Part shown: positions 5,701 through 55,810 of the stretch, one piece after another
Numbering within the stretch: the first letter of the stretch is position 1
Layout: every line of letters begins with the position of its first letter
NCBI GenBank assembly: GCA_001661245.1
Contig: KV454013.1
Coordinates: 1,086,502-1,150,501, forward strand
Direction of reading: 5' to 3'
Length of the DNA stretch: 64,000 nucleotides
Origin: Pachysolen tannophilus NRRL Y-2460
Lineage: Eukaryota
Translations under genes and position numbers: made by a program
The notes under the pieces: model-generated
The model's input: only the letters and a program-made list of their open reading frames with translations
What the model was told of the DNA's origin: nothing
Databases searched by the model: none

Positions 5701-7388
5701 CTAACATCATAATCATTTTGGAAAAAATCAAAACTTTCTTTTATCATTTCTAAAGACAATAGTTTAACATCAACGGAGAATTCACTATTTACTAAAATTG
5801 TTTCACTTATATAGTCACAGTTACTTACCCAGTTTCTATTAAACGGTAAGCAATTATAATTTTCCTTATAATGATTTAAAATAAAAATCATAATCTCATT
5901 GTTTTCTTGTGAAATTTCGGTTAAATTTGAAATGTAATCTTTAAGAAACTCCACTAGTTCATCTTTATCTCCTAAAAACCTATTATTTTGTATTAATTTC
6001 GTTAATTTTATTAAAAGTTTTGTGAATAAGGTTTTATTTTCATCTATTTGTTCTTTTAAATTGCCTTGATCGTTATTAATGAATACATTTTTCAGTAAAT
6101 TTCTCAAGATATGTAAAATAGAATAATCTTCTGAGAACCAATATTGAAATTTGAATACTTTGGAGTAATTTTTATCAGAAACTAATAATTCATTGAAAAA
6201 TTTCAACAAGTGAATAATTATTAGTGATTCCTTACATTGACTAGCAATTTCCAAATTTTCCAATATAGTATACATAGAGTTGTCTAATAAATCTCCAGAT
6301 ATATCATCTGAATCCAGAGCTGTCATTATGAATTTTTGTAAAAGCTGTATAGATCCAACAATGACGTAGTTGTTATTTCTTGTAGCATTACTTTTAATTA
6401 AATTTTGATCTTTCGATAGTATATTACATAAATTGTTTATTGTCAACTGGTGAAGGAAAACATTTCTAGTCAAATTTTCAAATATTTGCCAAACATAATC
6501 TTTTTCAATGTTATAAGAACCAGCTAAAACTTCTATTGTATTAGGAAATAATGCTAATGGTAAGATCCTATAGATTATTAAGATATCCATGAAGCTTAAA
6601 CAATTTTTTAAAATACATTTACTTGCTGTTATATTTGATAATAAAATAATTTCTTGTAAAAACTTGGTAACTTCACTTTCATCAAACATGCTAAAATTGA
6701 GTTTAAAACAATTTATAATAAATTTAATCAAATCATCAAGATTAACTTCAATAAACTTACTATTATCATAGTTTTTCACCAAGAGTCTTAAAGAAAAATA
6801 AAGAAAATCTATTAAAGAAATAGATTCATTTAAACAAAAATCTCTTATATCAGATCCATTATTAGTTAAGCATACCAATGCTTTTAAAAAAAAATTCAAA
6901 CTCTGATCTATAGAGTTGAAATCAGTAAAATCATTGCGACAGTATTGAATAATATCATTATAATAAGTTAACCTTATAGATACCGAATTAAGATCATCAT
7001 TCTTAATACAATTCTCTAATAATTTCAAAACAATCTCTCTATTTGACTCATTATTATCTTCAAGTAAATCTTTTGATGCATACCAAATCTCAGGAATTGA
7101 ACTAATGGAAAATTTATTTAATGAATCTGTCAATATTTTAATAGTCTCTAATCTTTCACTTATACTTCTATTTGATCTGTCTAATTTTTCAAATAATTCT
7201 TGTTGATTCGAAACTCCCCCAACAACTGTTGGATTTATCACTATTGGTAAAGATTTATATTTCTTATTATTACTCTTGGTTTTACTCGTGGTGAATGATC
7301 GGAACACATTTGTAAAACCTCCTATTGATCCTTTGCTACCATTATTACCAACACTAGATGCTGACTTTGTGTTATGATTCATAGCCAT
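2760..7388 (-). CDS. TSC2: Tuberin (Tsc2), Rheb GAP
   Basis: 1542 aa. C-terminal Rap-GAP domain (FHKAGIIYIG...YTGGLD...VFHIITLM...KKRHVGNNYVNIYY) preceded by a helical tuberin region. Confidence 0.85.
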   Translation of the reverse strand: MAMNHNTKSASSVGNNGSKGSIGGFTNVFRSFTTSKTKSNNKKYKSLPIVINPTVVGGVSNQQELFEKLDRSNRSISERLETIKILTDSLNKFSISSIPEIWYASKDLLEDNNESNREIVLKLLENCIKNDDLNSVSIRLTYYNDIIQYCRNDFTDFNSIDQSLNFFLKALVCLTNNGSDIRDFCLNESISLIDFLYFSLRLLVKNYDNSKFIEVNLDDLIKFIINCFKLNFSMFDESEVTKFLQEIILLSNITASKCILKNCLSFMDILIIYRILPLALFPNTIEVLAGSYNIEKDYVWQIFENLTRNVFLHQLTINNLCNILSKDQNLIKSNATRNNNYVIVGSIQLLQKFIMTALDSDDISGDLLDNSMYTILENLEIASQCKESLIIIHLLKFFNELLVSDKNYSKVFKFQYWFSEDYSILHILRNLLKNVFINNDQGNLKEQIDENKTLFTKLLIKLTKLIQNNRFLGDKDELVEFLKDYISNLTEISQENNEIMIFILNHYKENYNCLPFNRNWVSNCDYISETILVNSEFSVDVKLLSLEMIKESFDFFQNDYDVSYSNELYFKYINWFFGNIVFEKNIDVLEKLINVYFEEIALGLKNDDIFNYLIDNVIMSLFSDPQSLSNEYTTEYNITERKKSIRSFQSSFTNKTDPLNKVPFELLLLITKSLCKIFIVLSIQLNNGSKSLKIYDDCLIKISNFAINNLNSNLNYYKLLLCISKTLVRLRFTQENEIFITHPFDIDGLTATFNRNFSEEYESDRKDAEVSVNKDTLDWYYPEKVDYIPDFLINIQSKILKIDDQKDNNADFILDIRKWLDIVIKVYENFYHLEIYSFILSHFCPQLTNLNYFLTSSTPSSLQKNKNFILKLKEIFCNLLATKKPKNIYLPSNVTRADLHVCIIRNLTSLIPYNSFLTKNDQDQLINSLIMCLLTSWEKTAIPAINCLNLCCYELPLSIKKYLSLILNNLTIRISFIFTSPHILEFLINLSHLPGLITNFSIEEFRRIFGICFKFIEFLNDYNKGKLMRINEHSNGESIENQRLIQRHGVDVEVGNLPSTQTYEITAAISQYLLALCYNVISSWFLKMKMDERKELSPFITRNLVLLTSFSNKNEDEEDNNDQIVGFLDLISRFTYSDIDLKLINFSSHEEQNKINAEEKVLTKEKEEEEDAILISRWIFGYSIISIETNVKNGHSTIVIRKPSGITILKIKPDPIMLPEYINSFHYSSSHVNATTEDLNLSTLKEYFFTPDFFVSEFYNNDLITRSGNNINEHDDIKPTLLCGNDQIVRGINNLDRIPIIEFHKAGIIYIGPNQSKELDILSNTVGSKNYLKFLNKLGYKIDLLNNTENYTGGLDIGSNATDGKFTYFWNDKINQMVFHIITLMPNNFANDEFLYNKKRHVGNNYVNIYYDESGLPFNFNVIKSQFNFINIVISPIVVSSSPYLENNIEETDTKRYYKVKVYRKKLIPAIFSACHFKIISEDKLSIFIRNLVLVCNQFSNVWNISEGKYVSNWSRRVKHIKKLRNLNEKEREKEKGKDNSV

Positions 7389-7832
7389 TTTTGTACATCA
7401 GGTTTATTCATTATTCAATTTCATAAATACTAAATACCTTTTTGTATACAATTTTATGAAAAAACGCTTTAAAAATTATATGCACATTATGCAAAACGTT
7501 ATAAATTCAAATATTATTTTGATATATCAACATGAACATTGATTAGAAAACAAGTTTTATTTTTATTACAAGGGCAGATGGCGAATTCAGTTGTTGAGGG
7601 GTGGATTAGAAGATATGGAATTGTTGGTTTTTGGTTTTTGCTTTTTAAAAGAAATGAAGATAAAGTTGATATATCGTAAAAGCAGGAGTATTAAGGAGAT
7701 GTGAAAATATACATCAAGATTATTATTATAAATTGGTTGAAATCAGCTCTCAGGGAATTATGGTTTTTAAGTTGAAGGAAATGGTTATATTTTGCAGTTT
7801 TATTCTCGGAGGTTGAGAAGGTTGAGAAGGTG

Positions 7833-10403
7833 ATGAATAATATCGAAGATATGGCTCATAGATTTATGACTGCGGTCACTCCAATTGTCCGCAATGTGAA
7901 TTTCCATAATATTCTCTATGGAGTTGCTAGAACAACTGGATATTCGTTTATTTTCTCTAGTAGTTCCATGTTGATAAGCTTTGGGATATACCGTTTATTA
8001 TTTAGAAGTGCACATGAAGAGAGGCCACATTTTGAGACTGAAGATGAATATTGGCAGTACATGATTAGGAAGAATAATTCTTATTATAATGCAATGCCTA
8101 TGCCTAAAACTATACCGCCAGGAATTGAGTTCCCCATTCATATTAAACCTGAAAGTTCTTTTGAATTTATTAAAGAAAATCTTTTACGTTATTTATTTGA
8201 TAATTTTTCAGGAATTATTGTAGGTTTTCTTTTAGCTTTCTTACTTGCTTCTTTTAAAATTTTAGTTTGGAAGAAGAAGAAAAATATTAAATTAATCCTG
8301 AATGATTTTACAAAATTACAAAGAACTTATAAATTGAAATTAAATGAGATTGTGAAAGAGACTTCAAAGCTTTTAAAAAAATTTGAAAACTTCAATTATA
8401 ATACCAATAATATTGATGTTATTAATTCCAATTTTTTGGATTTTACAAACCAATTGAATGACAATTTTTTGATATTGAAAAACTTTATTATATCAAAATG
8501 TTATTTTTTGAAAACAAGCGCTTATGAACAGAATGCTAAAGATATTGATTTTGATTTTGAATTGGTTGAAGAATTTATGCAAAAAGTTGAAATTCAAACA
8601 AATAAATTTATTAAATCTTATATTGAAAAATCTATGAAATTATATTTACAGAAAAATAGAGAATTGTCAAAATATTTGGATAATTCAGATGATGATCTAA
8701 TTGAAATTAGTAGTCACAACTTGAAAGGTAACGAAAGGGAAAAAGAAGAAAAAAAAGAAGTTTTGAATGAAGATTTAAAGTCGATTAAAATTAATTCAAG
8801 TCCAGAAAAAAGCTTAAAACCGTTAACTTTGTCAAATTTGAAATCTTGTAATAGATTGTCAAAATCTCATCGTTCTCTTAGTCATTCACCGGGTAGTTAC
8901 AGTGGTAGTGGTGTACTTTCTCATATTCAACTATATTTTGATGATGATTCAAAAAATAGAACCAATGGTGCGGCATCAGGTATTTCCACTTCCACTCCAA
9001 TTCATAGCAGCCGAGATAGTGTTAGTGTCAATGCCACTGGTAGCTCTGATAATTTTATCAACATTTCCATGAACTCTCTTAATGAGTCAAGGGAGCTGAT
9101 TGACCAGTGTGAACAAAATATTTTTAAGATTGATTCTGAGTTAAAAAAATTAAAAGATAAAAGTAATTCAGTGCCACCAATAAGTGGTAATAGTAATGGT
9201 GTAAGAAAATTTGAAGATATTAATAAAGATTTGGAAATAAATGAATTGAGATTGAAAAATATTAAGTTTGATTTAATTAATGAAAGTTTACTTATTGATC
9301 AAAATGAAAAAATGGAAGATGAATATGCTCAGCTAAATTCCCCTACTCCAAAGTCTAAAAATGGTTTACAACAAGAAGTTTTTAAAGACTTGGTTACAGT
9401 TGATGAATTTAAAGATTTGAAAAAAGAGAATAAATTTTTGTTGAACAAATTAGAGTCATTAGAATTAAAGATTTCTGAACAAAAACAACAAATTTTTAAT
9501 AAAAACTCTGAATTTTTCAAGAATTTAGATTTCATTTTAAGTGATAAATTAAAACAAGAATTTAACCTTATAAATGAAAAATTGATTGAAAATAATTCTA
9601 TAACTCAAAGTAAAAATAATAAAAAAATTCAAGAATTTGGTCAAGATCTCAAGATATTGAATAATTTTAATAATTTCAATTTTTCAATAATCAAGAATTT
9701 AAATAAGAAAATTAATGAAGAATTATCATTAATTGAAAAAGACTTGATTTATGACTTACAATCAAGTTTCAAAGCCATTATTGGTAAATCTAGTTTTCTT
9801 GATGATTTAACTATCTTTGAATATACTGATACTGATATTATAAAAGCGTTAAATGATGCTAAACATAATGCGTTAAATGATTGTAATCTTTATTTTATCG
9901 AATATGCATGTTTTAGTGGAGGAAGTCAAGATATGATATTTGAAGATAAAATTACATTTGAACAAGATAAACTTTCTCATAATTGCAAAATTATAATAAG
10001 TCAAGTAATGTTTAAAGCTTTTAATAAAATTATAAATCAATTAAACAATTTTATCAAATTAGAAGAGAATTATAGCAATACTAATGATGGTAAAAATGGT
10101 GAAAAATTAAACCTATTGATACAATTTAAAAAACTACTTTTAGAATTTGAAAGCAAGATTATACCAGAAATTGTTCAATTAAACGAGAAAATTATAGGTA
10201 ATTTAATTACTGATTTTAAGAAACTTAACATTTACAAAAAATCATGTCTTGAAGTCTCATCCACAGGAACAACCTCAACCAAGAAAAAAGAATCCCAGTC
10301 TCCAATTAAAAAAGTCTACGATAAAGTCATTAGCTGTCTCTACGATGACTCACTAGAAAATGTATCCTCTGGAATTGGAGACATCAATAAAAACAAAACT
10401 GTC
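7833..10403 (+). CDS. Uncharacterised membrane-anchored coiled-coil protein; native last codons (LNPFEI*) inferred at 11050-11030 on the minus strand
   Basis: Long open frame with a hydrophobic segment (GIIVGFLLAFLLASFKILVW), a Ser-rich linker and K/E/N/L-rich heptads. As assembled it runs to 10475, but the last 23 aa look like the Pff1 C-terminus. Confidence 0.75.
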
Positions 10404-10475
10404 ACCCCAGATTATATTACTCTTACGAAAAGAACAACTGGCTTGGTGAATGTTAAAAGATACCTCGAATTATAA
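10404..10475 (+). CDS. PFF1: Displaced C-terminal 23 codons of PFF1 (inside inversion 1)
   Basis: TPDYITLTKRTTGLVNVKRYLEL* fits the recalled Pff1 ending (..EL.xY-x-P....T....GLV.V....L*), which is missing after IPAYDELLEY at 11051. Confidence 0.75.
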   Translation, partial: TPDYITLTKRTTGLVNVKRYLEL

Positions 10476-10849
10476 ACTACTTCAAAACTAAAACTAAATT
10501 GCTCATATGACCATTATTTATACCCTTGTTACCTTATTTGTTTTCCTATACTTTTTTTTTTATTATGATCTTAATATCCTAATTGTAAATTTACTAATGT
10601 TAATAATACTAATGGAAATAATATGACTTGACTTGAGATTTTATGTAGACACACAAGCGGTAAGCTTTTACCTTACCACACTGCAAACTATCACTGTTTA
10701 AGATAACACTTTAAGCGAGCGGTACTAATGTTATAAGCGGTACTAAAGAAAGAAAGAAAAAATAAGCACATAAAGGTAGTGTACTGAGCGCGAAATAAAC
10801 CAAAAGAGTAATAGTAAAAAGGAAAAAAAAAAAAAAAGAACGCCGATAT

Positions 10850-10942
10850 TGACATGGACAGGAATTGAACCTGCAACCTTTCGATGACACTGCCAGAAGT
10901 TTTCAATTGGAGTCGAAAGCTCTACCATTGAGCCACCACATC
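10850..10942 (-). tRNA. tRNA-Trp(CCA) with 21-nt intron (10886-10906)
   Basis: GATGTGGTGGCTCAATGGTAGAGCTTTCGACTCCAA-[intron]-ATCGAAAGGTTGCAGGTTCAATTCCTGTCCATGTCA. Acceptor stem pairs, A and B boxes present, oligo-T terminator at about 10837-10823. Confidence 0.95.
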
Positions 10943-11050
10943 ATTCGGTAATGCAATCGGAAAATATAAGTGTTAATATTAGTTTGGGATTATAGGTAGC
11001 TTGGTAACTTTGCAACTTAGTAACTTAGATTAAATTTCAAATGGGTTCAA

Positions 11051-14000
11051 GTATTCCAACAACTCATCGTAAGCTGGAATCTTTTTCCTTGTAATGTAGT
11101 TGTTCTTCTTGTCTTGAATGACAGAGATTTCGTCATATTCGTTCCAGAAACATTGAACATTTAATCCTAAATCTGGAACGTTGTTATCTTCAAAATTAAA
11201 ATCAAAACTTGGTAACCATTCTAATCCAACATGATAAAAAGGTGATGAAAAATTCAATTTGTATAATAATACTTCATCTATACCTTGCAGTATTTTGAAA
11301 ATATGTGCATTTTTGTCTGGGTCATATGATGGACCTGATGGAGTAGCAAAGATTTTAGAACCATTTGATGGTGGATATTGATCTCCGTCATGGTATATAG
11401 TTATCGATTTCACAGGTGAGAGTAATTTCTCATCTTGTTGTTTTTTAGTTAAATCATAAGTTGAGGTATTAAACGAAAGTAAGCAATTTCTATTTTTGGG
11501 AGCCCAGATTCTAAATTCTGCTGATAATAAATAGTAAGGTGATGAAACAGAAATTTTATCCTTTTTGTTATCGTCTTTTAATAGTTCAATTCTTGTATAA
11601 TTTTGGAAATCATTTTCCTCGATTGAACCATCAATTAACCAAGGTCTCAAAGGATCAAAATATGAACATGATTGTTGACCAGTTGAAAGCTTATCGCATA
11701 GAACCTTGAAATTTCTTGATTCCTTTGATTCCTTGAGGGATGGAAGATCGTTGATTGCAGACTCAAGAAAGTCACCATATCCAGTTAAAGTAACAGAATC
11801 CACAGATTTATCCAGATCAATTGTTTGTAAAAAAGATAATTTCAGTGGGTTTTGTAAAGATACTGCATTTTGTGAAATTGAAACATAACCACTAATGATA
11901 AAACTCAAGATTAAAACAACAAATATTAAAAAATTCAACCTGTGAACAAATGGTAATAACGGTAACCCTAATAAGACGGCAAAACAAGCTATCATATTAA
12001 ATGCCGCTTTTTGCAAAAGATCACTTTCTTGTACAACGTTATGTATACCTTCCATAATTAATTCTCCTAAATCATAAACTATAAATGTTGTAATTGGTAC
12101 AAATATTAAGAATTGAATTGACCAGTCATATGAAAAAGATTTCATAGCAGCTTTTTCTAATTTCTTGTTAAAATTTTCTTCAGATGCTTCAAATTCAGTA
12201 TCAAAGTTATCATGTTCATGTTCATGTTCATGTTCATGTTCATGTTCTTGTTCTTGTTCTTCAATCTCGGCATTTCGATTTGCTGTAGAAGTTGCTAATA
12301 GTGGAACATTTTCATCTGCTTGAATACCATTTACATTTTCGGTTTCTGTGGTTTCTGTACCATTCTCCAAATTTTCAACATTTTCAACATTCTCAACATT
12401 TTCAGGTTCCGTTCTATTATTACCAGTAGCTTGAGTATTAGACCTTCCATTATAATCAGTAGAACCATAATGTTTAATGTTCTCATATTGATTGTATTTA
12501 GGATTAGACTTGAATGCCATCCCCAATAATCCAAATAAGCTTGCTCCTGATATTAAAATGTAAACAATAATTATAGAATATTCTCCAATATTATCCTGTG
12601 AATGTAGTCTAGCTGTACTAATTATACCTGATATCCAAAAAATAAAACTTAACTCTAATAGTATAATTAATTTTTGATCATGAACTGGGAATAACCAATC
12701 ACAAAAATTTAAAACCAAGTAATTTATTATAATGGCAAAACTTGAGGTAGTTATCAATACTGCAAACCAATTATTATTAAGTATTATCGGATTCATCAGA
12801 TTGATAAAATTTGTTAATGAAAAAGTCAAGAATGATGACAGTATTATACTAATTGGTAATCTGAACCAACCATGAATACCTTTAAGATGCCATGTTTCCC
12901 TCTTTATAACAATGATTAATAATAATATTGTGAAAATTGGTATTGTTGTTAAAATGAAAATGTTTAGTGCGTATAATTTACTCACTGGAAAACTGATAAA
13001 CCAATAGTTTAAAACATCAAAAAACACTGAAATTGAAGTATCACTGTTAATCTCTTGACTATTACTTAAGGCATTTAACAAGTCTAAAGTATTTGAAAGC
13101 ATACTCCATAAAGAATTCTTTGAACTTGTTTTAATATTGTCAAATTCAGTATGATATAAAGATCTTGGTCTGTAAAAAGCTATATCAACACCTCTTAATC
13201 CTTTCAGTGAATAAATCTTATAGTCAGTTTCAGATTTAATTAATCCACTTTGGAAACCTTGCTGGAAAATAGAATTACCATATGGTCTTCTAACTTTCTG
13301 ATAAAAATTCACAACTCCATAATCAGTACCTCTAAATAATATAGATCTTCCTCCAGCACCTGTTCCTTCTAAATTAATAAAATATTTAACTAAATTAGCC
13401 CATTCATGATTGGAAAAAACTTCTGCTCCCATCAAACCATCTTCTTCGTTATTATTAAAATTGAAAATTATTGTTCTCAAAGGTTGTTCCACATCTTTAG
13501 ACATCAAATTTTCTAATATCCCAAGCATTGAAGCAACCCCCATCCCATCATCTGTAGTTCCATAAGAACTTGAAACAGAGTCATAATGTGAGCTGATTAA
13601 TATTCCATCTAAACTTTGATCTTTCCCAGTCACTTTCACCAATATATTCCCACTTTCAAAATACACAATTCTATTATCATTATTATTAAACATATTCTGT
13701 TGCTTAAAAATAGATCTTGAACCAAAATCATCATAAACTTCTGTATATTCTACTTTTAAACTAACAAGACTTTTAACTTTTTTCAAAATATAATCATGTA
13801 CAACATCATTCGCATGAGAAGAATAAGGATGAGGTTTCAAACAAATCTCTTGTAAGTCCGACCAAGCACTCGTCAATATCAACTGTGACAGTTCATCCGA
13901 TGGCAATCTTAACGATTGATATTCAACATATGAAGGTAAAAATATTGCAAAAAAATAAGATAATACAACCAACAAGCTTAAAGTTGTCTTTCTAAAACCA

Positions 14001-14065
14001 AATGTAGACCTTATAAACGATACAATTATACCAGGACCATCATCCTCTTTTGAAACACTTTTCAT
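11051..14065 (-). CDS. PFF1: Vacuolar membrane M28 metalloprotease Pff1 (main part)
   Basis: HPYSSHAND, SSHYDSV, GTTDDGMG, NNNEE.GL.GA, FINLEGTGAGG, YHT, then multiple TM segments and an EH repeat. ATG at 14065. Confidence 0.9.
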
Positions 14066-14306
14066 CTTATATCGATTCCAATGACAATTCCAATGACAAT
14101 CAACCAATTAATCACCTGTATATCGTCGTTTTTGAAATTGGAATATCGTTTTAATTGATATATTTTATAAAATGTAAACGGTATAATATACGGGCCCTTA
14201 ATAATAATAAAGAAAAACAGTACTTAAAGAATTTTTCAGTTTTTAATAATAATGTTCACAATTAAACAATTAAAAGAGAATTAATTATTTGAATTTAAAT
14301 TACAAG

Positions 14307-14379
14307 ATGTCTGTTGATGAAGAGTTTGCTCCGTTGAAGAATGATTTGATTTTGAGAGCTGCAAGAGGTGAAGTTGTTG
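14307..14379 (+). CDS. HEM12: Uroporphyrinogen decarboxylase, N-terminal piece
   Basis: [24 protein letters not shown] matches the Hem12 N-terminus. Confidence 0.9.
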
Positions 14380-15327
14380 TTGTACAAGGATCCAAATTTC
14401 CTTGTAAAGTGACTCTACCATTGTTTAATGCAACTGCATCTTCAGGTTTATATAACCAATCTAATGAAACACAAGAATAACCTGAATCACATAAGTTATC
14501 TAATGCGTACCATGAACCTTTAGCAAAGATAGTAATTGGAATTTTTCTTTAATTCCTAATTCTTTTAATTTTAATGGTAATTTAGAACTTATTTGTTTCA
14601 AATAAGGTAATGAAAATTCATTAAATTCATTTGGACCTAATTCTCCACCCCAAGATTCGAAAACTTGTAACATTTGAGCACCTGCTTTAACTTGATGAGC
14701 CAAGAAATCAATAGCAACATCAGTAATTTTTTGTAATAAAACATGTGCTTCTTTTGTATATTTATAAATCCATTCTTTAGCGAATCTAAATAATTTAGAA
14801 CCACCTCCTTCAACCATATATACTAATAAAGTCCAAGGACCACCACAAAATCCTAATAACGGTACTCTACCATTAAGTTTTTTCTAGTAACTGTAATTGA
14901 TTTTAAAGCCCAACCTAATTCTTTTTCAATATCAACTTTCTCATTTAATTTCAATAAATCTTCTGGTTTTCTTAAAGGATCAACAAAATGTGGACCTTGT
15001 TTTTCAATCATTTCAACTTCCATACCCATTGCTTGAGGAATAACCAAGATATCACTAAAGATAATCGCAGCATCAATTAAACCTTCAAAATGTTCAATAG
15101 GCTGTATGGTGATCTCAGAAGCTATCTCAGCATCACGACAAGTCTCAAAGAAATCACGGCCACCTTTAACTTCATGATACTCTGGCAAATAACGTCCGGC
15201 TTGTCTCTATAATTCAACAAAAAAAAAAAAAAAAAAAAAAACAAATCATCATCGTTAATAATAAAACTTGGAAATCTTTATATAAAGAAAATAAAAAGAC
15301 TTACCATAATCCAAACTGGAGGTCTCT
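14380..15327 (-). CDS. HEM12: Uroporphyrinogen decarboxylase, inverted middle piece (inversion 2, 948 bp) with one intron and two 1-nt homopolymer frameshifts
   Basis: (E)RPPVWIM-[intron][10 protein letters not shown]...[15 protein letters not shown]...[20 protein letters not shown]...QVFESW...[10 protein letters not shown]...LDW...LQGNLDPCT. Confidence 0.92.
15207..15304 (-). other. HEM12: Spliceosomal intron in HEM12 (98 nt)
   Basis: GTAAGT donor, TATTAAC branch (15260-15254), poly-T tract, TAG acceptor. Joins WIM to RQAGRY in phase 0. Confidence 0.9.
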
Positions 15328-15497
15328 TGTATGGATCAAAAGAAGTCATTACTCAAAAAGTTGCAAATATGATTAAAGGTTTTAATGGTGGTAAAAAAAA
15401 TTATATCATCAATTTTGGACATGGAACTCATCCCTTCATGGATCCAGAACAGGTTAGATGGTTCTTACAAGAATGTCATAGACTTGGATCCTTATAA
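15328..15497 (+). CDS. HEM12: Uroporphyrinogen decarboxylase, C-terminal piece
   Basis: (M)[55 protein letters not shown]. Confidence 0.9.
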
Positions 15498-15687
15498 ACC
15501 TCTTTTTCCAAATAATTGAAGTTATTTAAAGTAATTGGGAAAATTCCATTTTGTATAGTTAATTCTTAACTTTTTTTATATAAATATTGTTTTGTATTAA
15601 TTTTTCAGTAAATTTTTCATGTTTTAATTAAAAAGAATTTATATGATAATTAAATTAAAAGAATAAGAACAGAAGTAAATAGGTTTA

Positions 15688-16746
15688 ATGTCTAAGATAA
15701 AGAAGGAGAATATCTCACAGTTTCAATCCAATGAGCTTTATATATATCATTTGTCAAGAGATGTGCTAAATTCATTAGAATTGTTGTATTTTGATTCGTT
15801 AACTACAGAGGCAATTTCTCCAAACAGTATTGTTTCGTTAACTTCAAAATCTTTGGAACAACATAATGAACAATTGATGGATAATGAACAATCACAACTG
15901 ATTTCTAATGTTTGTCAAACTTGTGGTTCAAAGTTAGATGGACTTGATGTTAAGAAATCACATTACAAGAGTGATTTTCATAGATTCAACCTCAAGAGAA
16001 AATTACAAAAAGTACCTCCAGTAAGCGAGCTGGAGTTTGATAAAATTATTCAAGATTTGGATGAGAGTATAAGTGGTTCAGATTCTTCAAGTCAAGAAGA
16101 TGATAATGATAGTTATGATGATGATAAGGAAAAAAGGAACTTGGAGACAATATTTGAAAAAACAGATCGTTCTTTGAATAATCTTTCTATTCAAGACAAT
16201 GAACAGAGTGTTCATTATCTAAATACAAAATCACCATTTGTACTCTTCAAATCTAGTCTATTATCACCGGAAAGATGTTTTGGCATATATAAGTCTTCTT
16301 TTGATGTAACGGAATTACATTCGAATCCATTAGAAGCATTAAAGAATTGGAATAGTGTTGATCAATCAAAGAAATATTCAGCATTATTCATGATTGGAGG
16401 TGGGCATTTTGCAGGAGCAATTATATCTCATAATCCGAAACCAGTAAAGGGAAATATAAATGGTTCTTCGGGGGAATCTTTATTAGAGCAGTCAGTCAAT
16501 ATAATCGAACACAAGACATTCCACAGGTATACAACTAGAAGAAAGCAAGGTGGTTCCCAAGGAACCAATGATAATTCTAATGGTAAGGCTAACTCTGCAG
16601 GTTCATCTTTAAGACGTTATAATGAAGCTGCATTGGAGAAAGAAGTTAGAGAGTTGTTAAATAGTTGGAAAAATTATTTGATTAATTGTGAATCTATATT
16701 TATAAGAGCTAATGGTGCCTTGAATAGAAATATTTTGGTTGGATAT
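15688..16746 (+). CDS. VMS1: Vms1/ANKZF1, N-terminal part (C2H2 zinc finger and VLRF1 domain)
   Basis: CQTC...HYKSDFHRFNLKR, FMIGGGHFAGAII, HKTFHRYTTRRKQGGSQ, SAGSSLRRYNE. Stops abruptly after LVGY. Confidence 0.92.
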
Positions 16747-16816
16747 TAATTCAGACAGTAAAGGTAAAAAGTTTATAAATTACATTTTCATAAAAATTAA
16801 TAAAACAGAATTATAG
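16747..16816 (+). CDS. RDH54: Displaced C-terminal codons of RDH54 (inside inversion 3)
   Basis: (N)NSDSKGKKFINYIFIKINKTEL* is in frame with RDH54 once 16747-17751 is flipped. Confidence 0.7.
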
Positions 16817-16884
16817 AAAGATCTATTTATTTATTTAATTTTTTTCAAAAAAAAAAAGGTCAATTTCTATGTAAGCTAGTTTCA

Positions 16885-17751
16885 CTAATTCTTTCTATTC
16901 ATTCTTGCTTCAGCGGCTCTTGCTCTTTGTTCGCGCATCAATCTCATTTTTTGTTCATCAGATAACTGGTTCAACATTGATTGATTCGAAATAGAAGTCA
17001 TCACATTGCCTAGCGATTTTCCTGTTCCGTATTTCAGAACTCTTTCTGTTGCTATTTCCTTTTGGTACAGTTGCAACTCCTTCTCATGCAATAATTTTTT
17101 ATCATTTTCTTCCTTTGATTTGAGCTTTTCTTCTTCATCTAAAAACTCTTCTTTTGACTTCAGAGGTAAATTGACATGGGCATCTTCAACCCAGTTACAA
17201 TACACTTCACCTAAGTTATATCTTGCTATCTGAAATATTTTCTTGATTTCTTTATTAGAAGTTAATTCAAATGGTGTTTTCCCCAAATCATTTTTAATAC
17301 ATGGATTTGCCTTTAAATTGTTCAATAACACTTGTGTAATATAAGGTATATTATTGTATGTAGCGCAGTGCAACAAAGTTGGAGTCGTCAGGTACTCAGA
17401 ACTTGGTTTTAATTCAAAATCTGGTGAAAGTTTATTTTTCTTGATATAACTAATCAAAGCAGGTGCTTTGGATTTTTTTATAAAGCCAATCAATTCAATT
17501 GTATGCTTTTCATCTTCAGTCAACTCCTGAGCTGCTTCCAGTTTTCTTTCAGCTATTTGCCTTGAGTTTATCATATTTTGTTCTTGTTTCAAAAGTTTTT
17601 CTTTTAGTTTTTCATTAGTCTTTGGTAAATCCATTATATTCATATATGTCAAGTTAATCCATGCTTTTTTCAACTCAGACAGTGTAGCCCTCTTGGTGGT
17701 GAAAGGAAATGACTTAATTCTTTTGTCTTCATTTTTTAATACAGATCCTTC
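16885..17751 (-). CDS. VMS1: Vms1 C-terminal part (ankyrin repeats, coiled coil, VIM), inverted
   Basis: EGSVLKNEDKRIKSFPFTTKRAT.SELKKAW...TPTLLH...GKTPFEL...RLMREQRARAAEARM. Confidence 0.92.
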   Translation of the reverse strand, partial: EGSVLKNEDKRIKSFPFTTKRATLSELKKAWINLTYMNIMDLPKTNEKLKEKLLKQEQNMINSRQIAERKLEAAQELTEDEKHTIELIGFIKKSKAPALISYIKKNKLSPDFELKPSSEYLTTPTLLHCATYNNIPYITQVLLNNLKANPCIKNDLGKTPFELTSNKEIKKIFQIARYNLGEVYCNWVEDAHVNLPLKSKEEFLDEEEKLKSKEENDKKLLHEKELQLYQKEIATERVLKYGTGKSLGNVMTSISNQSMLNQLSDEQKMRLMREQRARAAEARMNRKN

Positions 17752-20381
17752 TTTCTAATTATATTTTCCAAGACTTCATCATAAGCAATAAATTCAGAGC
17801 ATACTTCAGGATCGATATGTTTGTAATCTTGTAAACTCTTAATTGCATTTTTCTTCTTTATCGGTTCTTGTGATACTTGCTTAAAATCTAATGCAGAAAT
17901 CCAGTCTGGTTTCGCATCATTAGATTTGTCTTCAAGTTCTTCTTTTTCTTCTTCTTCTGATTCAACCGGTTCAGAACCTTCAACTTCTTCTCCGGTACCT
18001 GTACACTTACATTCCAATAAGCTATGCGTATTACTTTTAATGTCTGCATCAACTGTGAATAAATCTCTTAAATCGCTGTATTCGAATAGGTCATTTTTTG
18101 AACTTGATTTATCGTCTAAAAACTTGTCACTCAAATTATTTTTCATTAGCTGTCTTTGGAAAATCTTTTCGTCAATTGCCCCAGATGTTAACAAACGATA
18201 TACAAAGACAGGCCTTTTTTGACCGTCTCTATGGATTCTTGCCATTGCTTGCAAGTCAACAGACGGATTCCAGTCATTATCAAATAAAATTAATCTCGAA
18301 GCACCTATCAAATTCAACCCGCATCCGCCTGATTTTGCTGATAATAAAAATACAAATGATGACAGCGATGATGAAGTGTTAAAATCGTTGACGACTTTAT
18401 CGCGGACCTTACTTTGCGTCGATCCATCCAATCTTAAATACGACATATTATGAGCATCTAAAATCGTTTGTAATAAATCTAACGTTTGAGTAAAATTTGA
18501 AATTAATACAACTTTCTCGTTAGACCCAAGGTCCCTAATACTGTTTAATAACTTGACCACTATTTTCATCTTCCCACTAGCTACTTTCTTAGATAAATCA
18601 TATTTACGTCCAGAATCATTCCCAGATATTTTGGTAAATATATCATCCTCATTGACTAATGCTGGAGAATTGCAAATTTTCCTGAAAACTGTAATCAAGC
18701 TCAAAGAATCACTAAAGTTATTTTTTTGAATCGTCTTATTGAACATTTGCGAATCCAAAACCAGGTTAAATAATGATAATTGCAATTTAGTCGGAGGAAC
18801 AAACAAAACAAGATCTGTTCTTGGAGGCAAAAATTTCGAAATAACCGTGTTGGTACGTCTCAAGATAAAAGTTCTAGTTATTTGGATCAACTCATCCGAT
18901 TTCTCGTTCCCCATTTCTATCACCTGTTTATTTTTACAATTCACTTCTCTAGCCCTCAAGATTGGATTAATAAAGTTTCTTTGAAATTTGTCAAAACTTC
19001 CAAATATACCTGGATTAACAAAATTAATTATATTATAAAACTCGGTTAAATCATTCTGAATTGGAGTTCCTGTTAACAATATTCTTTTCTCAATATCTAA
19101 AGTATTTAAAACTTTTAAAACTTTATTTTGAGAACTTTTTAATCTATGTCCTTCATCGCATACCAATAAATCGAAATCAACGGTTTCTAATTCATCGGCC
19201 ATAGTCAATACTTTCTCATAGCCTAATATCAAAACTTGATATACTCTGGTCCTACCAAAGCTCTTAATATTGGCTTTATCAGCTTTCAGGTTATTACTAC
19301 CATTTATTGTTAAGACACTTATTTTATTCATTCCCAACCATTTCTTAAATTCCTTTTTCCAGTTCCCAATCAAAGTAACTGGGCATACGACAAGTACTCT
19401 CTTAGCAACAGGAGATTGACTCAGGTAGGGAGATTGTCTTAACAAAGTCCAAATGAGGGTAATCGTCATTAAGGTCTTACCAAGTCCCATTTCATCAGCT
19501 AATAGAGCACCATTACCCCCATGATCTCTGAACCCCATTATACATTCATATAAAAACAAAACACCTTCTCTTTGATGAGGTCTCAAATGTTTTGATAAGC
19601 ATGGATCAACAACAACATCAACAACATCACTTTCAGGTTCATTTGGAGGACGTTTCATGACTAATGCTTCTTCTGCATTTGGATTATATAATGGTGGTCT
19701 TTTTTCCTTTGGTGGTCTACTAAGTGTATTTGCAGTAATAACTTGCTTAAATTTTGGTAAATTTATAGCTGGCTTTATAATTGGAGGTAAATATTTTATC
19801 ACTCTTGGAGGCTGTTGCTGAATTATATTTGTCTCTACATCCAGAGTATTCGAAGATGAATGTGACTGTAAATATCGCTGATATTTAGCTAATTCATCTG
19901 TATTAGTTATTTCATAATCAACTTCCATTTCATAATTACCTATCTTTACCAATCCTTCAAGATTTACCTTACCCAATGATCTGCATTGCTCTCTGTAATT
20001 TTCTCCCCCAGTTAAATCACATCTAAAAGTACCAGTCCCATCTTGATTCAAAATCAACAATCCATCACCATCCCAAGTTTTATTTTTTTTCATTGTTTTC
20101 TTTCTCCAAATGACAAAGAATATCTTAGAACCTCCTTGTCCTTCCCTTGAACTTATACACCTATCACAACTTTCAACCTGAACCTTCTTATTAACGGGAA
20201 GTTCAACATCAGAATGATGATGCGATATACTTCTCTTCTGTACCTCTTGTTCAATTACAACCTTGGCGTTTCCCTGATTTTTCAACTGATCAGTAATCGA
20301 ATTTGAAGACTTCATTCTCGGCGCTCTAAATGGCGTATTGAAAGAACCGCCAGAGTTCCCCCTCTGACTATTTCTATACAT
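17752..20381 (-). CDS. RDH54: Rad54-family SNF2 DNA translocase Rdh54/Tid1 (main part)
   Basis: WRKKTMKKNKTWDGDG N-terminal motif, LADEMGLGKT, CDEGHRLK, TGTPIQNDL, QAMARIHRDGQ. Confidence 0.9.
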
Positions 20382-20568
20382 CACAACTCCTATATTTCTA
20401 TTCCCATCTAATTCAAATAATTCTTCTCTTGTTTACAAAAACTGCAATTTTTGAAGTATTTATATTTTTTTATATTTTATTTTTTGGCGCGATTCCTAAA
20501 ATATACTACAACAACGAGAATGTTGTATTTTAACTATACTTTTCTTAAAAAGAATATACACAATTTAT

Positions 20569-22821
20569 TTATTGTTTCACCACAACCCCAGCATCGTTGG
20601 CATTTTGAAGAATGTATTTCTTGTAGTCATTTATTGTACCGTTGAATCTCTTCACGGTTCCGTTCTCACTAACCCAAATTTCTTTACAAACTTTATCAAT
20701 AACTGCGACATCATGGGAAACCATTAATACACCACCTCCGAAATTATTTAAAGCTTCAGCTAAAGCGTCCAAACCAAATGTATCCAAATGATTTGAAGGT
20801 TCATCTAAGATTAAGATATGAGGGTTTGTTAAACATAATGCAGCAAATGCAACACGAGATTTTTGACCTCCCGATAGTGATTGCATTTTTTGTAAACCTA
20901 AAGAACCGGTGATACCAAATGAACCTAGATGACTACGGTATTCCTGGTCTGATTTACCAGGGTAAGTTTTTGCCATCCATGAGACTGCATCCAACGATAA
21001 GTCCATGGCGTCAACATGGTGTTGAGCAAAGTATCCGATTCTTAACCTTGGGTTTTTTGAAACAGAGCCCGATAAGGGAGTTAATTGCTCCATCAAGAGT
21101 TTCAAAAGGGTAGTTTTACCACAACCATTACCACCTACTAAGGCAATACGAGAATCCATCTGTATATCCATGTCGACATCTTTTAATAATAACTTATCCG
21201 GACTATATCCAAATGTAACTTCTTGTAATCTTAAAATCGGTGGAGATAATTTCTCTGGGTTTGGGAATTTGAAACTTACAGATTTGATCTCTTCTGGTGC
21301 CTCCAAGACAGGCAATTTTTCCAATTTTTTAATTCTTGATTGAGCTTCTGAAGATTTAGCTGCATTATATCTAAATTTATCAATAAACAGTTGTAAATGT
21401 TTCCTATATTCCATTTGGTTCTCATATTCTCTTTTTTGATTTTTTAATCGTTCTTCTCTTGTTGCGTAGAAAGAATCAAAGTTTGCACCCCTATAATAAT
21501 CTAATCTTTCAGAGTGTTGATGAATAATATCAGTAGCAACTTCATTTAAGAAAGCACGATCATGAGAAACAACAAGAACTGTAGAAGGATATGTTTGTAA
21601 ATATTTTGCCAAATAAGTGATAGAAGGAACATCCAACATATTAGAAGGTTCATCTAATAACAACAAGTCCGGTTTACAAAACAAAGCTCTTGCTAATGAT
21701 AATCTCATTCTCCAACCACCAGAAAACGATTTTGTCGGTACGCTTTGAGCCTCTTTAGAAAAACCTAATCCAAACAAAATGGAAGCAGCACGGGATTCAG
21801 CTTTATCACTCTCCATTTCAGATAACTTGGAATGCACTTCTTGTAAATGCAATTCTAAATCACCTGCTTCATTATCCAATTTTTTAACTTCTAATGAATC
21901 TGCTTCAAATTCTTTTTTCAACTCCTCAATTTCATTAATTCTTTCTGTTATCTTACTTTCCTCTGATAATAATTGTTTTCTCCATACATCAGCATCTAAG
22001 ACGGATTGTAAAGCTGGGTTATCATCACCTACAATTTCTTGTTCAACATGCAAAATTGTAATATGTTTTGGAACATTTAATTCTCTTCTTGATAAAGCTC
22101 TTAACAATGTGGATTTACCAATACCATTTTGACCAACTAAACCATATCTTCTACCATAGGCCAATGTCAACGAAGCATCACTCAAAATACGTTGACCTTG
22201 ACCAACATATAAATCGAAATTATCAATCTTAATATCCTTGGATTTACCAGCAGATGATCCAAAATCAATAGGGTTAATCTTCAAGAAAAATGATTCATAA
22301 TCTTCTTGTGATTGTTCATTCAACAATTTAGATGCTTCATATTTAACAAATTTATTAGCTCTCTTGGAAACTTTCTTGGCAATTTTAGCCTCTGCCTTCT
22401 CCAATTTCTTCTTATCAACTCTAGATTCCATCTTTCTTCCAGTATGCTCAATATCATTTGTAGATTGCAATAATGCTAAAGATGAAGTAATATCTCTCTG
22501 TTGACTATGAATCAAATTAATATCCAACAATCTTTTTGAAGTATCACCTGTTACTGATAATTTTGCCATATTTTCATTCAACTTATTGGTCAAATCCTGT
22601 ATCACTTTAGACGTCAACAACTCTACTTTCTCATAAGAACCTCCAGCACTGATCAACAACTGTTTAATAAATGAAACTTCTTTTCGTATATCCAACCTTT
22701 GAGCTAAAACCGAATCCTCGGTTGAATCCGAAACATACTGTATATATCCAGTCGCATAATCCGCTACCACGGGATCAATTGAAGGAACAGCTTGACGAAG
22801 CTGTAATCCAAGATTCGACAT
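20569..22821 (-). CDS. GCN20: ABCF protein Gcn20
   Basis: Two ABC domains (GQNGIGKST, FSGGWRMR; GGNGCGKTT, LSGGQKSR), no TM segments, Gcn20-like N-terminus. Confidence 0.93.
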   Translation of the reverse strand: MSNLGLQLRQAVPSIDPVVADYATGYIQYVSDSTEDSVLAQRLDIRKEVSFIKQLLISAGGSYEKVELLTSKVIQDLTNKLNENMAKLSVTGDTSKRLLDINLIHSQQRDITSSLALLQSTNDIEHTGRKMESRVDKKKLEKAEAKIAKKVSKRANKFVKYEASKLLNEQSQEDYESFFLKINPIDFGSSAGKSKDIKIDNFDLYVGQGQRILSDASLTLAYGRRYGLVGQNGIGKSTLLRALSRRELNVPKHITILHVEQEIVGDDNPALQSVLDADVWRKQLLSEESKITERINEIEELKKEFEADSLEVKKLDNEAGDLELHLQEVHSKLSEMESDKAESRAASILFGLGFSKEAQSVPTKSFSGGWRMRLSLARALFCKPDLLLLDEPSNMLDVPSITYLAKYLQTYPSTVLVVSHDRAFLNEVATDIIHQHSERLDYYRGANFDSFYATREERLKNQKREYENQMEYRKHLQLFIDKFRYNAAKSSEAQSRIKKLEKLPVLEAPEEIKSVSFKFPNPEKLSPPILRLQEVTFGYSPDKLLLKDVDMDIQMDSRIALVGGNGCGKTTLLKLLMEQLTPLSGSVSKNPRLRIGYFAQHHVDAMDLSLDAVSWMAKTYPGKSDQEYRSHLGSFGITGSLGLQKMQSLSGGQKSRVAFAALCLTNPHILILDEPSNHLDTFGLDALAEALNNFGGGVLMVSHDVAVIDKVCKEIWVSENGTVKRFNGTINDYKKYILQNANDAGVVVKQ

Positions 22822-52415: not shown

Positions 52416-55232
52416 TTAAGCAACACCATTTATGATAGCCTCACACAACTGTTCGTCTTCACCTCTCACCTGTGTCTTCATCATAATTCCTCTTGACGAA
52501 TTAGCAGCTAATCTAATGATACATGCAACTTTAGCAGAGTTCAAAATACTCTTACCAAATAACTTCAAAACATGAGTAGTTGAGTTTGAATCAGTAACTA
52601 TATCTGATCCATCTACTGGCATCATTGAAAGAACTCTGATCAATCTTTGAACAATTTCTTGTAAATCATTAGAATCAGATAAGTTGTAAACACCACTTTG
52701 TTCAATTTTAGAAAGTTCGTCCCATTGGTGGGTGAAATTCCCTGTGAATGAAGGAATAATGAAATCTCCTGGTGTCAATGATAATTCTTCAATTTGATAT
52801 TCATCTTGGAAACCTTCATCCCCTTCAAAAGATTCACCTGTAGTAGTATCAACTTCCTTTGATATAAATGAAAGAGTATTTGTGAATGAAGTCAATTCAA
52901 TTCCCGAAGGTCTTGTGAATGATACGTAAACAGTACCTTTTGATTGAGGTTTCAATTTTTCAATAGGCATTATGAATTCTTCTTCGTATAATTCATCTGC
53001 TTCAGGTGATGAAACCACTGTAACTTCATTTAATTCAGATTCTTCTAAAGTATTTTCAATATTGAATTGTAAGACCAAATGATCTTCAAAAACATGTTTA
53101 ATAACTTCAACAACAAATTCAATTTCTCTCTCTGTCAATTCAACAACTGAAGATGAGTGTAACAAGTTACCATAGTTTTTAAATTCTGGTATTGCCGATA
53201 ATTCTTGAGAATATTGTTGTTGTAATACTGTATTTTTGATGTATTGATTGCTTTCTTCTCTATCTTCAGCTCCATATCCATTGTTCTCACCATTTGTGTT
53301 TCTATTCTTATTTTGTTCTACATCTGCATTTGCTTCTTCTTCCAATAATCTTGTCTTTTCTCTGAATTCATAAGCTTTCAGTTCATCATCTGATATAGTT
53401 GGTACAGATTTGATATCAAATGATTGGATAAAGCTTTCCTTATCACCTTGCATATACAAACTTAATTTTTGTTCCAATACAGGTAATGAGTATTTTGTAT
53501 TTGGAGAAATAAAATCTTTTAATTTTTCCTTTTCATCTGGTGAAGACAATTCTTCAAAAGAAGTAATCAATTTTAAAGATAAAGCAGCTCTATCTCTAAC
53601 TTCATCATCAACATCATTTAAACATCTACTTAATAAAATCTTTATACTTTTGCTAATTGATTCATCACCAATCAATGCAAATTTAGACAATGCAATAACT
53701 GCAGAAGATCTAACAATTGAATTTTCCAAGACAACACGATTATAAATGTGTCTAATATATAAAGTTGGATTTGTTGTCTTTGGTCCCTCATTACCCAATA
53801 AATGTAAAATTCTTACAGCTAATTCTGTAAATTCACAATCTTCAATAAATTCACATAAATTTTCAAGAGCTAAATCTCTTGATTGAGGCACAAACTTAAT
53901 CATATCAAATAATGCTTCAACAATTGCATTTTTGAAAACAAATCCACCATCATCTCTAAGACAATCATTTAAGAAATTTAACATTGTCTTATATTTTTCT
54001 GGGAATTTTAAAGATAATGTTCTAATTGCATCAATTACAACAATTTTGAATTCATCTGAAATATCATTCATAAATTTCAATATTGTTTTAATCAATCTAT
54101 CAACATTATCTGAATTACCAGTTTTCAATAATGTGGTAATTGCATAAGTTGAAACAGATCTGTTTGAATCATTAATTAAATTTTCTAATTCCACATTACA
54201 TATAACAATTTTTTCTGGTGTTTTCATTGCAATTTTATTTAAAATTCTAACAGCGGCAAATCTTGTAACTGTTCTTGGAACAGATAATAAGATTTGTAAA
54301 CAATTTATTGCAGCTAAATGTTGTTCACTAGAAAAAGAAGAAATTCCTAATATTGTCTTTGCAGCTTCTAATTCAACCATATCTGATTTATTTCTTAACC
54401 AGTTATTTAAAACTGGGAATAATGGCTGAGCATATGAAGGAACATCTTTAATAATTTGACCAATGTAACGGATTAATTGAACAATTGCCAATGGACTTCT
54501 TAATGGAGAATTAGAATTACTCAATTGATTGATCAATTTCATAAGTGCCATCTTATCATGATTTCTTAAATGATATAACAATCCCAACGCGTGATATTGA
54601 TAAACATATGTACTCGAAGGCAATTTGTTAACACCATAATTTTCATGGGTTAAAAATTGTTGTGGAGGGAAAGTCTTTGTAGCGCTAATGGCTTCCTGGG
54701 TTTCATTTGTCCAACGCTTAACAACATCTTTCAGCACAGCTAATAAATGATATGATGAAACTAAAGTAGCCGAGGTAATACTTGGATTTCTATCAACAAC
54801 ACAATTCTTCATCAATCTTTCAGTAGCATGAACCGTGGAAGCATCCACAATTCTTGTTAAAGATCTTATAGCATTCGGCTTATAAATAGCTTCACCATTT
54901 TGAATATCTTTCATAATTGAAGAAGTGACCATCAATACATCCTCACTAATAACCGACAACTCCTTAATAGCCAAATAAACCATCTGTCTAAGAGAAGAAT
55001 CCTTATGTTGGAAGAGTTTTGAAATTGAGAAAAACAAAGTCGTAGCCTCTTGTGATGCAAAACTATCACCTAAATATAATAACCTCAATAATCTCGACAA
55101 CAATAACCGACATCTCTTGGCCTGAACTGGTGAAGTATTAAAAGCATGAAGACAATCCTGGAAAACAGTCATCTTATCCGGCAACGAGCCGGAATCAATG
55201 TCCTCAAATTTTTTATAAGATAGAGTTGACAT
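52416..55232 (-). CDS. SEC21: COPI coatomer gamma subunit
   Basis: MSTLSYKK...LPDKMTVFQDC, LCEFIEDCEF, IRHIYNRVVLEN, DDEVRDRA. Confidence 0.95.
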   Translation of the reverse strand: MSTLSYKKFEDIDSGSLPDKMTVFQDCLHAFNTSPVQAKRCRLLLSRLLRLLYLGDSFASQEATTLFFSISKLFQHKDSSLRQMVYLAIKELSVISEDVLMVTSSIMKDIQNGEAIYKPNAIRSLTRIVDASTVHATERLMKNCVVDRNPSITSATLVSSYHLLAVLKDVVKRWTNETQEAISATKTFPPQQFLTHENYGVNKLPSSTYVYQYHALGLLYHLRNHDKMALMKLINQLSNSNSPLRSPLAIVQLIRYIGQIIKDVPSYAQPLFPVLNNWLRNKSDMVELEAAKTILGISSFSSEQHLAAINCLQILLSVPRTVTRFAAVRILNKIAMKTPEKIVICNVELENLINDSNRSVSTYAITTLLKTGNSDNVDRLIKTILKFMNDISDEFKIVVIDAIRTLSLKFPEKYKTMLNFLNDCLRDDGGFVFKNAIVEALFDMIKFVPQSRDLALENLCEFIEDCEFTELAVRILHLLGNEGPKTTNPTLYIRHIYNRVVLENSIVRSSAVIALSKFALIGDESISKSIKILLSRCLNDVDDEVRDRAALSLKLITSFEELSSPDEKEKLKDFISPNTKYSLPVLEQKLSLYMQGDKESFIQSFDIKSVPTISDDELKAYEFREKTRLLEEEANADVEQNKNRNTNGENNGYGAEDREESNQYIKNTVLQQQYSQELSAIPEFKNYGNLLHSSSVVELTEREIEFVVEVIKHVFEDHLVLQFNIENTLEESELNEVTVVSSPEADELYEEEFIMPIEKLKPQSKGTVYVSFTRPSGIELTSFTNTLSFISKEVDTTTGESFEGDEGFQDEYQIEELSLTPGDFIIPSFTGNFTHQWDELSKIEQSGVYNLSDSNDLQEIVQRLIRVLSMMPVDGSDIVTDSNSTTHVLKLFGKSILNSAKVACIIRLAANSSRGIMMKTQVRGEDEQLCEAIINGVA

Positions 55233-55583
55233 TGTTTAAATAAATACCACTACTATAACAACAACAATAACAATAACAATAACAATAATACTGAGGAAAA
55301 TCCTCTCCTATTGGCGCTACGTCAAACCTTTTATAAAAATACAAAAAAAAAATAAAAAAAAAAATTCGATATTTCCAAAAGATAATACCTAACCCAATTT
55401 CCCTTGATTGGATTGTTTTTAATTGATTTTAACTGTTCTTGCTATGTTATATATATATTATTATATATTATATAGATAATAATACTTAACTACGTGTAGA
55501 TTCATTACTTGATCTTTTTTTTTTTTCCTTTGTTTGAAATTCTCAATGAATTTTTCTGCCAAAAAAAAAAAACCAAAAAAAAA

Positions 55584-55810
55584 NNNNNNNNNNNNNNNNN
55601 NNNNNNNNNNNNNNNNNNNNNNNNNNNNNNNNNNNNNNNNNNNNNNNNNNNNNNNNNNNNNNNNNNNNNNNNNNNNNNNNNNNNNNNNNNNNNNNNNNNN
55701 NNNNNNNNNNNNNNNNNNNNNNNNNNNNNNNNNNNNNNNNNNNNNNNNNNNNNNNNNNNNNNNNNNNNNNNNNNNNNNNNNNNNNNNNNNNNNNNNNNNN
55801 NNNNNNNNNN
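55584..55810. other. Assembly gap (N run)
   Basis: Run of n characters. Confidence 1.

What the first reader, a model, noticed from the sequence alone, without database searches (positions are those of the whole stretch)
10404..17751. Cluster of three clean 0.6-1 kb inversions that scramble five neighbouring genes
Seen: segments about 10404-11050, 14380-15327 and 16747-17751 each read on the opposite strand from the genes they interrupt. All six breakpoints fall in coding sequence, and reversing each segment restores in-frame junctions with no base gained or lost. I see no flanking inverted repeats, shared junction motif, N gap or recombinase gene, and no similar break in the other genes of the window. 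Inference: misoriented small contigs or a locally corrupted sequence is most likely, because HEM12 would otherwise be dead. If the junctions are real, this is a local inversion hotspot or a reversible gene-scrambling switch, which I do not know from budding yeasts.
Basis: partly seen in the sequence, partly recalled or inferred. Interest (0 to 1): 0.8.

Follow-up and report, generated by a model that had tools for sequence, protein, structure and literature searches.

The report
Assembly error flips three yeast segments
The three flipped stretches that seem to scramble five genes of this yeast are in the genome assembly but not in the contigs of the four public sequencing runs checked, which show the normal gene order at all six joints, so this is an assembly error, likely made when gap-filling pieces were pasted in backwards.

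Summary
Segments 10404-11050, 14380-15327 and 16747-17751 lie on the opposite strand and cut an 880-aa ORF, PFF1, HEM12, VMS1 and RDH54. Contigs of 4 of 4 runs laid (two samples, two studies) change strand at all six junctions, at the predicted bases and at full contig depth; none of the 32 listed pieces crosses a junction in window order. All 4 indels against the runs lie inside the flipped 16% of the stretch; no difference is listed in the flanks. Two of them frameshift HEM12, so flipping alone does not restore it; in the runs' version it is an intact 364-aa, one-intron gene. There are no in-register inverted repeats. Best reading: error-prone patches spliced in reverse-complemented (inferred). 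The scan noted like flips elsewhere in this genome (ADE2, RPS22, REG1, a regulator); I confirmed two by sequence and found two more candidates (PSG1, MLH2-like). Contigs drop rare variants, so a rare second orientation is not strictly excluded. Not a real feature.

The parts
10404..11050 (.). Flipped segment 1 (647 bases): true end of PFF1, tRNA-Trp, true end of the 880-aa ORF; 5 T missing behind 10551 against the runs
14380..15327 (.). Flipped segment 2 (948 bases): core of HEM12 with its intron; one T missing behind 14541 and one behind 14877 against the runs (two frameshifts)
16747..17751 (.). Flipped segment 3 (1005 bases): 3' part of VMS1 and true end of RDH54; 2 A missing behind 16846 against the runs
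7833..10475 (+). ORF of no Pfam family, 880 aa as assembled with the tail of PFF1; 863 aa when segment 1 is flipped back
11030..14065 (-). PFF1 (M28 vacuolar membrane protease); PFF1_C profile stops at 230 of 246 as assembled; 1028 aa when flipped back
10849..10943 (-). tRNA-Trp(CCA) inside segment 1; holds the only substitution listed against the runs (10894, 2 of 4 runs)
14307..15497 (+). HEM12 (URO-D), only URO-D locus found in G000; in the runs' order and letters a 364-aa protein with one 98-nt intron, 86.5% identical without gaps to P0123
15688..17751 (+). VMS1; 353 aa as assembled, 641 aa when flipped back; one alignment spans the junction in 120 of 120 homologues
17736..20381 (-).

Best explanation
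The three inversions are in the assembly G000 but not in the contigs of four public runs of this yeast, so they are an assembly error, likely made by a gap-filling or patching step that spliced pieces of a more error-prone consensus into the scaffold at the right coordinates but on the wrong strand. Shown: opposite order in the runs, base-exact junctions, indels confined to the segments, no repeats or Ns at the ends. Inferred: the patching step and the read type (homopolymer shortening as a mark of pyrosequencing or early long reads is recalled, not from a call). In the cell the five genes would be ordinary and intact.
For:: 6 of 6 junctions appear as 'opposite strands' joints in 4 of 4 runs (X5; X1, X2, X3), at the depth of the contig that carries them; one contig per run of 10.9-13.8 kb passes three joints with contiguous record coordinates; 0 of 32 listed pieces cross a junction in window order; 5 runs hold 0.96 of the sampled words; 0.967 is expected if only junction and indel words are missing. 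Indels: 4 of 21 A/T runs of 5 or more inside the segments against 0 of 128 outside (Fisher p 0.0003; the two short coding runs alone p 0.016). No substitution is listed in the 13.4 kb of flanks, so runs and assembly are near-clonal. HEM12 in the runs' version is 364 aa and aligns across both junctions in 72 of 73 full-length homologues; as assembled the only URO-D locus found in G000 is in four pieces. Like splits elsewhere: ADE2, RPS22, PSG1 and MLH2-like; the PSG1 piece also has its likely start codon out of frame beside a T run.
Against: Only Logan contigs, no raw reads: rare variants are dropped, and 203 further pieces and 150 loose ends were not shown. It is not known whether any run is the DNA the assembly was made from. 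The step that made the error was not observed, and two paper searches for such a patching fault found nothing to the point (listing not read further). A long A/T run inside each segment (3 of 3) is weak support for 'gap at a homopolymer': the base rate for comparable segments is 0.56-0.61. The four other splits were not tested against runs.
Confidence: 0.96

Rival explanations
1. Real inversions private to the culture that was assembled: three blunt two-break inversions fixed in that DNA, absent from the cultures behind the runs.
For: The junctions are blunt with 0-1 base of shared sequence, as end joining could leave; it is not shown that a run comes from the assembled DNA.
Against: The culture would need three inversions in 7.3 kb plus four homopolymer shortenings inside them and no substitution in 13.4 kb beside them; its only URO-D locus found would be cut twice and frameshifted twice; ADE2 would be cut as well.
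Confidence: 0.015
2. A reversible gene-scrambling switch: cells flip these segments at low frequency and the assembly caught the minority state.
For: Flip/flop inversion exists in the species named for P0128 (PMC6692504, passage on an 8-kb MAT region flanked by 2-kb inverted repeats). Contigs hide rare variants.
Against: No in-register inverted repeat (longest exact match within 60 bases of the ends: 10, 7 and 6 bases; the 10-base one is out of register), no shared junction motif, no PF00589 recombinase in G000 (0 matches, controls 14 of 14), no branching of contigs at the joints in two studies, and a switch would not explain the indels inside the segments.
Confidence: 0.01
3. Same verdict, other cause: small contigs placed the wrong way round at scaffolding, or a misjoin in the assembly graph, rather than patches.
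For: Sizes of 0.6-1 kb suit small contigs; each holds a long A/T run or a tRNA where graphs break.
Against: No N, overlap or lost base at any of six joints; a graph misjoin would need a shared word at the ends, and there is none; the breakpoints lie in unique coding sequence, away from the runs. This is counted within the 0.96 for 'artefact', as about a quarter of it.
Confidence: 0.25

Closest known systems
Local misassembly: small false inversions in a draft genome (general class; the patch-on-wrong-strand cause is my inference, no paper found)
   Same: Present in the assembly and in protein records built on it (P0128, P0241), absent from contigs of public runs; breaks conserved genes.
   Different: Unusually clean: base-exact ends, no Ns, no repeats, so it passes for a real event.
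FF1 flip/flop mating-type switching of Ogataea polymorpha, Pachysolen tannophilus, Ascoidea rubescens (PMC6692504, PMC5720833; passages read)
   Same: A chromosome section in either orientation in a budding yeast.
   Different: There 8-44 kb or more with MAT genes between 2-kb inverted repeats, both orientations found; here 0.6-1 kb, no repeats, ends in housekeeping genes, one orientation in all runs laid.
Small evolutionary inversions in yeast synteny blocks (PMC1391921, passages read; Seoighe et al. 2000 seen only as a reference entry there)
   Same: Short segments reversed in place.
   Different: Those are differences of gene order between species; these cut reading frames and are not in other DNA of the same organism.

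Membership tests
Assembly artefact | Sequencing data of the organism contradict the assembled junctions | tested here: met
   6 of 6 junctions un-inverted in 4 of 4 runs, two studies
Assembly artefact | The assembly's own raw reads contradict it | not testable with these tools
   Runs are coded and kept as contigs; source of G000 not known
Assembly artefact (patch type) | Segments have a different error profile from their flanks | tested here: met
   4 of 21 A/T runs inside differ, 0 of 128 outside
Assembly artefact (patch type) | Segments sit over hard-to-sequence runs more often than chance | tested here: inconclusive
   3 of 3 hold a run of 10 or more; base rate 0.56-0.61
FF1 flip/flop switch | Long inverted repeats at both ends | tested here: not met
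   0-1 base in register; longest nearby 6-10 bases; none among the 25 longest pairs joins the ends of one segment
FF1 flip/flop switch | MAT genes inside the invertible region | tested here: not met
   Contents are a tRNA and parts of PFF1, HEM12, VMS1, RDH54
FF1 flip/flop switch | Both orientations present in DNA | tested here: not met
   One orientation in contigs of 4 runs; rare variants cannot be seen
FF1 flip/flop switch | Inducible by nitrogen starvation | not testable with these tools
   Needs culture and PCR
Site-specific invertase switch (features recalled) | Short inverted crossover sites shared by the ends | tested here: not met
   No shared motif at six junctions
Site-specific invertase switch (features recalled) | A recombinase gene | tested here: inconclusive
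   PF00589 0 matches in G000; none among 30 window ORFs scanned; serine recombinases and Flp not searched genome-wide
Fixed evolutionary micro-inversion | Carried by other isolates of the species | tested here: not met
   Absent from both samples laid

The most novel reading that the evidence does not exclude
A repeat-free, recombinase-free inversion process flips 0.5-1.1 kb pieces inside housekeeping genes at many loci in a small share of cells; the assembly caught the rare state, which contig cleaning removes from the public runs.
Probability: 0.01. Interest if true: 0.85.

Novelty: not a real feature. Interest (0 to 1): 0.05.

Why it matters
No biological novelty. The practical value is a warning: this assembly carries clean false inversions, likely some tens genome-wide (2 candidates in 400 kb outside the window, a lower bound), which spoil public protein records (P0128, a 267-aa HEM12 model that runs across the false junctions; P0241, a 514-aa MLH2-like model) and can fake gene loss, split genes or trans-splicing. 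Other split-gene findings in G000 should be laid against runs before they are scored.

Tried and rejected
Breakpoint search by longest total ORF does not fix the ends: many pairs tie, and it fails for HEM12 because of the intron and frameshifts; the ends come. Inverted-repeat scan of 10000-18200 gave 1452 weak AT-rich pairs, the 25 longest shown, none at both ends of a segment. No RNA holder listed. Two rows were dropped as chance matches of short side: joint 9427-20448 (side 21) and 20468-12807 in table 5c. Search for an intact VMS1 of the same species among longer proteins found none; best 55% identity. The HEM12 search found only P0128, whose first 15 residues match minus 15349-15305 across the false junction, so it is built on the same flipped sequence and is not independent; this also shows that the flip predates this scan. 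Homopolymer enrichment of the segments is not significant. The 464-kb codon-model survey is noisy and insensitive: the VMS1 piece of this finding scored below its cut, so counts are lower bounds; I picked two candidates by eye from 235 frames and left several same-strand frameshift-like pairs unexamined. Pfam did not recognise the minus pieces of PSG1 or MLH2-like, nor the PFF1 tail. Paper searches found no report of these inversions or of the patching fault (listings only); (HEM12 essentiality) was seen as a listing only, so the need for HEM12 rests on recall. Notes near the place and a word search of earlier findings were empty.

Full report
Observation. The window lies at G000:C3:1086502-1150501 and G000 has the same letters over the 1401 bases searched. 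It is an AT-rich (GC 0.30) budding-yeast sequence; a public protein named for Pachysolen tannophilus is identical over the matched part of HEM12 (P0128), and a second one reads 3 of 3 CTG codons as Ala (P0241). Three segments read on the strand opposite to the genes they cut. The URO-D profile falls into three minus-strand frames (positions 22-296) and one plus-strand piece (292-345), and these four are all the matches in G000. The bVLRF1 profile of VMS1 ends at position 103 on plus and resumes at 104 on minus. Flipping 10404-11050, 14380-15327 and 16747-17751 in a script swaps the tails of the 880-aa ORF and PFF1 (863 and 1028 aa), makes VMS1 641 aa and RDH54 899 aa; one alignment spans the VMS1 junction in 120 of 120 homologues. 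The ends share 0-1 base in register; the longest exact inverted match within 60 bases is 10, 7 and 6 bases, the 10-base one out of register. The only N run of the window is 40 kb away.

Test against sequencing runs. Five runs, of two samples and two studies, hold 0.96 of the sampled words of 9500-18500; 0.967 is expected if the words over six junctions and four indels are missing. I laid four of the five (X5, X1, X2, X3) on 6000-22000. In 4 of 4 runs all six junctions appear as joints to the opposite strand: 10402-3/11050-1, 10403-4/11051-2, 14379/15327, 14380/15328, 16746/17751, 16747/17752. Each has the depth of its contig (for example 126.6 in X5), and in each run one contig of 10.9-13.8 kb runs through three of them with contiguous coordinates. 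None of the 32 listed pieces crosses a junction in window order; 203 further pieces are not shown. X1-X3 are one sample and may be the source of the assembly; X5 is another study. Two short-sided rows (9427-20448, 20468-12807) were dropped as chance. Limits: these are contigs, which drop rare variants, and repeats were skipped.

What the differences say. One search lists four indels, all inside the segments (behind 10551, 14541, 14877, 16846), each a shortened A or T run in the assembly, and one substitution, in the tRNA-Trp gene in 2 of 4 runs (likely copies of the tRNA collapsed; inference). The 13.4 kb of flanks show no listed difference. Among A/T runs of 5 or more, 4 of 21 inside differ against 0 of 128 outside (Fisher p 0.0003); two of the four are long runs, which occur only inside the segments in this stretch, and the two short coding runs alone give p 0.016. 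In the runs' order and letters HEM12 is a 364-aa protein, 86.5% identical without gaps to P0123, aligned across both junctions in 72 of 73 homologues of 340 aa or more (72 of all 120). So the segments look like sequence of another, poorer source than their flanks.

Mechanism. Shown: wrong orientation, base-exact ends, no Ns, no shared words, indels only inside. Inferred: a step that replaces a scaffold interval by a patch using coordinates, with the strand not corrected. A misjoin in the graph would need a shared word, and a wrongly oriented contig would usually leave Ns or an overlap (general knowledge, recalled). That gaps arose at long A/T runs is plausible but weak: 3 of 3 segments hold one, base rate 0.56-0.61. 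I put artefact at 0.96, of which about three quarters for the patch route.

How widespread. Earlier notes of this scan report like flips in ADE2, RPS22/snR44, REG1 and a zinc-finger regulator of the same genome (unchecked AI notes). I confirmed two by sequence: the AIRC profile is split 2-78 on plus and 68-147 on minus on C4, and Ribosomal_S8 3-47 on minus and 40-126 on plus on C1. A codon-model survey of 464 kb around the window gave two more candidates: PSG1, with profile 28-186 on plus from C3:1011024 and an upstream part on minus that matches the paralogue's front (E 2e-4) and has its likely start out of frame beside a T run; and an MLH2-like gene whose minus piece weakly matches the C-terminal part of 12 of 21 homologues (E 5e-6 to 0.003, composition correction off). 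None of these four was laid against runs. Public models carry the error: P0128 begins and ends across the false HEM12 junctions.

Comparison with known systems. Reversible inversion is known in budding yeasts: in FF1 switching a MAT region inverts between inverted repeats, 8 kb between 2-kb repeats in P. tannophilus (PMC6692504, passages) and 19 kb in O. polymorpha, where no recombinase was found (PMC5720833, passages). The segments here fail on repeats, contents and mixture of orientations. No PF00589 recombinase was found in G000. Evolutionary small inversions (PMC1391921, passages) are differences between species, whereas these are absent from other DNA of the same organism. Four searches found no paper on these inversions or on the patching fault (listings only); no supplements were read.

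Verdict. Not a real feature; interest 0.05. The remaining novel reading, a rare repeat-free switch hidden by contig cleaning, has about 0.01 and would need raw reads or PCR.

Noticed in passing
window 54600-56500: The 5' region of the coatomer gamma (SEC21-like) gene is present twice, on both sides of the 227-N gap at 55584-55810, 97.7% alike over 695 bases with 6 gap openings; the second copy gives a degraded ORF at 55543-56145. Likely an unmerged contig overlap.
   Followed up: partly
   Followed up: partly
G000:C3:~1033255-1034295 (L026): MLH2-like gene looks split by a flipped ~1.04-kb piece; public model P0241 stops at 514 aa; the next 1888-codon frame lacks an early start.
   Followed up: partly
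G000:C4:35322-36267 (L006, L007): ADE2 AIRC domain split across strands, with a 23-base A run inside the flipped piece.
   Followed up: partly
G000:C1:1844620-1845356 (L009, L011): RPS22 exons on opposite strands.
   Followed up: partly
G000:C3 984474-985481, 990863-995636, 1179218-1183225, 1329284-1335427, 926089-928246: Same-strand neighbouring frames that abut or overlap and look like single genes broken by a frameshift or stop; may be further base errors or introns.
   Followed up: no
window 14380-15327, minus strand: HEM12 has a 98-nt intron after codon 32 (GTAAGT...TATAG) with a long T tract and no plain TACTAAC branch point.
   Followed up: no
P0241 versus L026:5210-6757: 3 of 3 CTG codons are Ala in the public protein, in line with the CUG-Ala clade; homologue columns in VMS1 were inconclusive.
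   Followed up: partly
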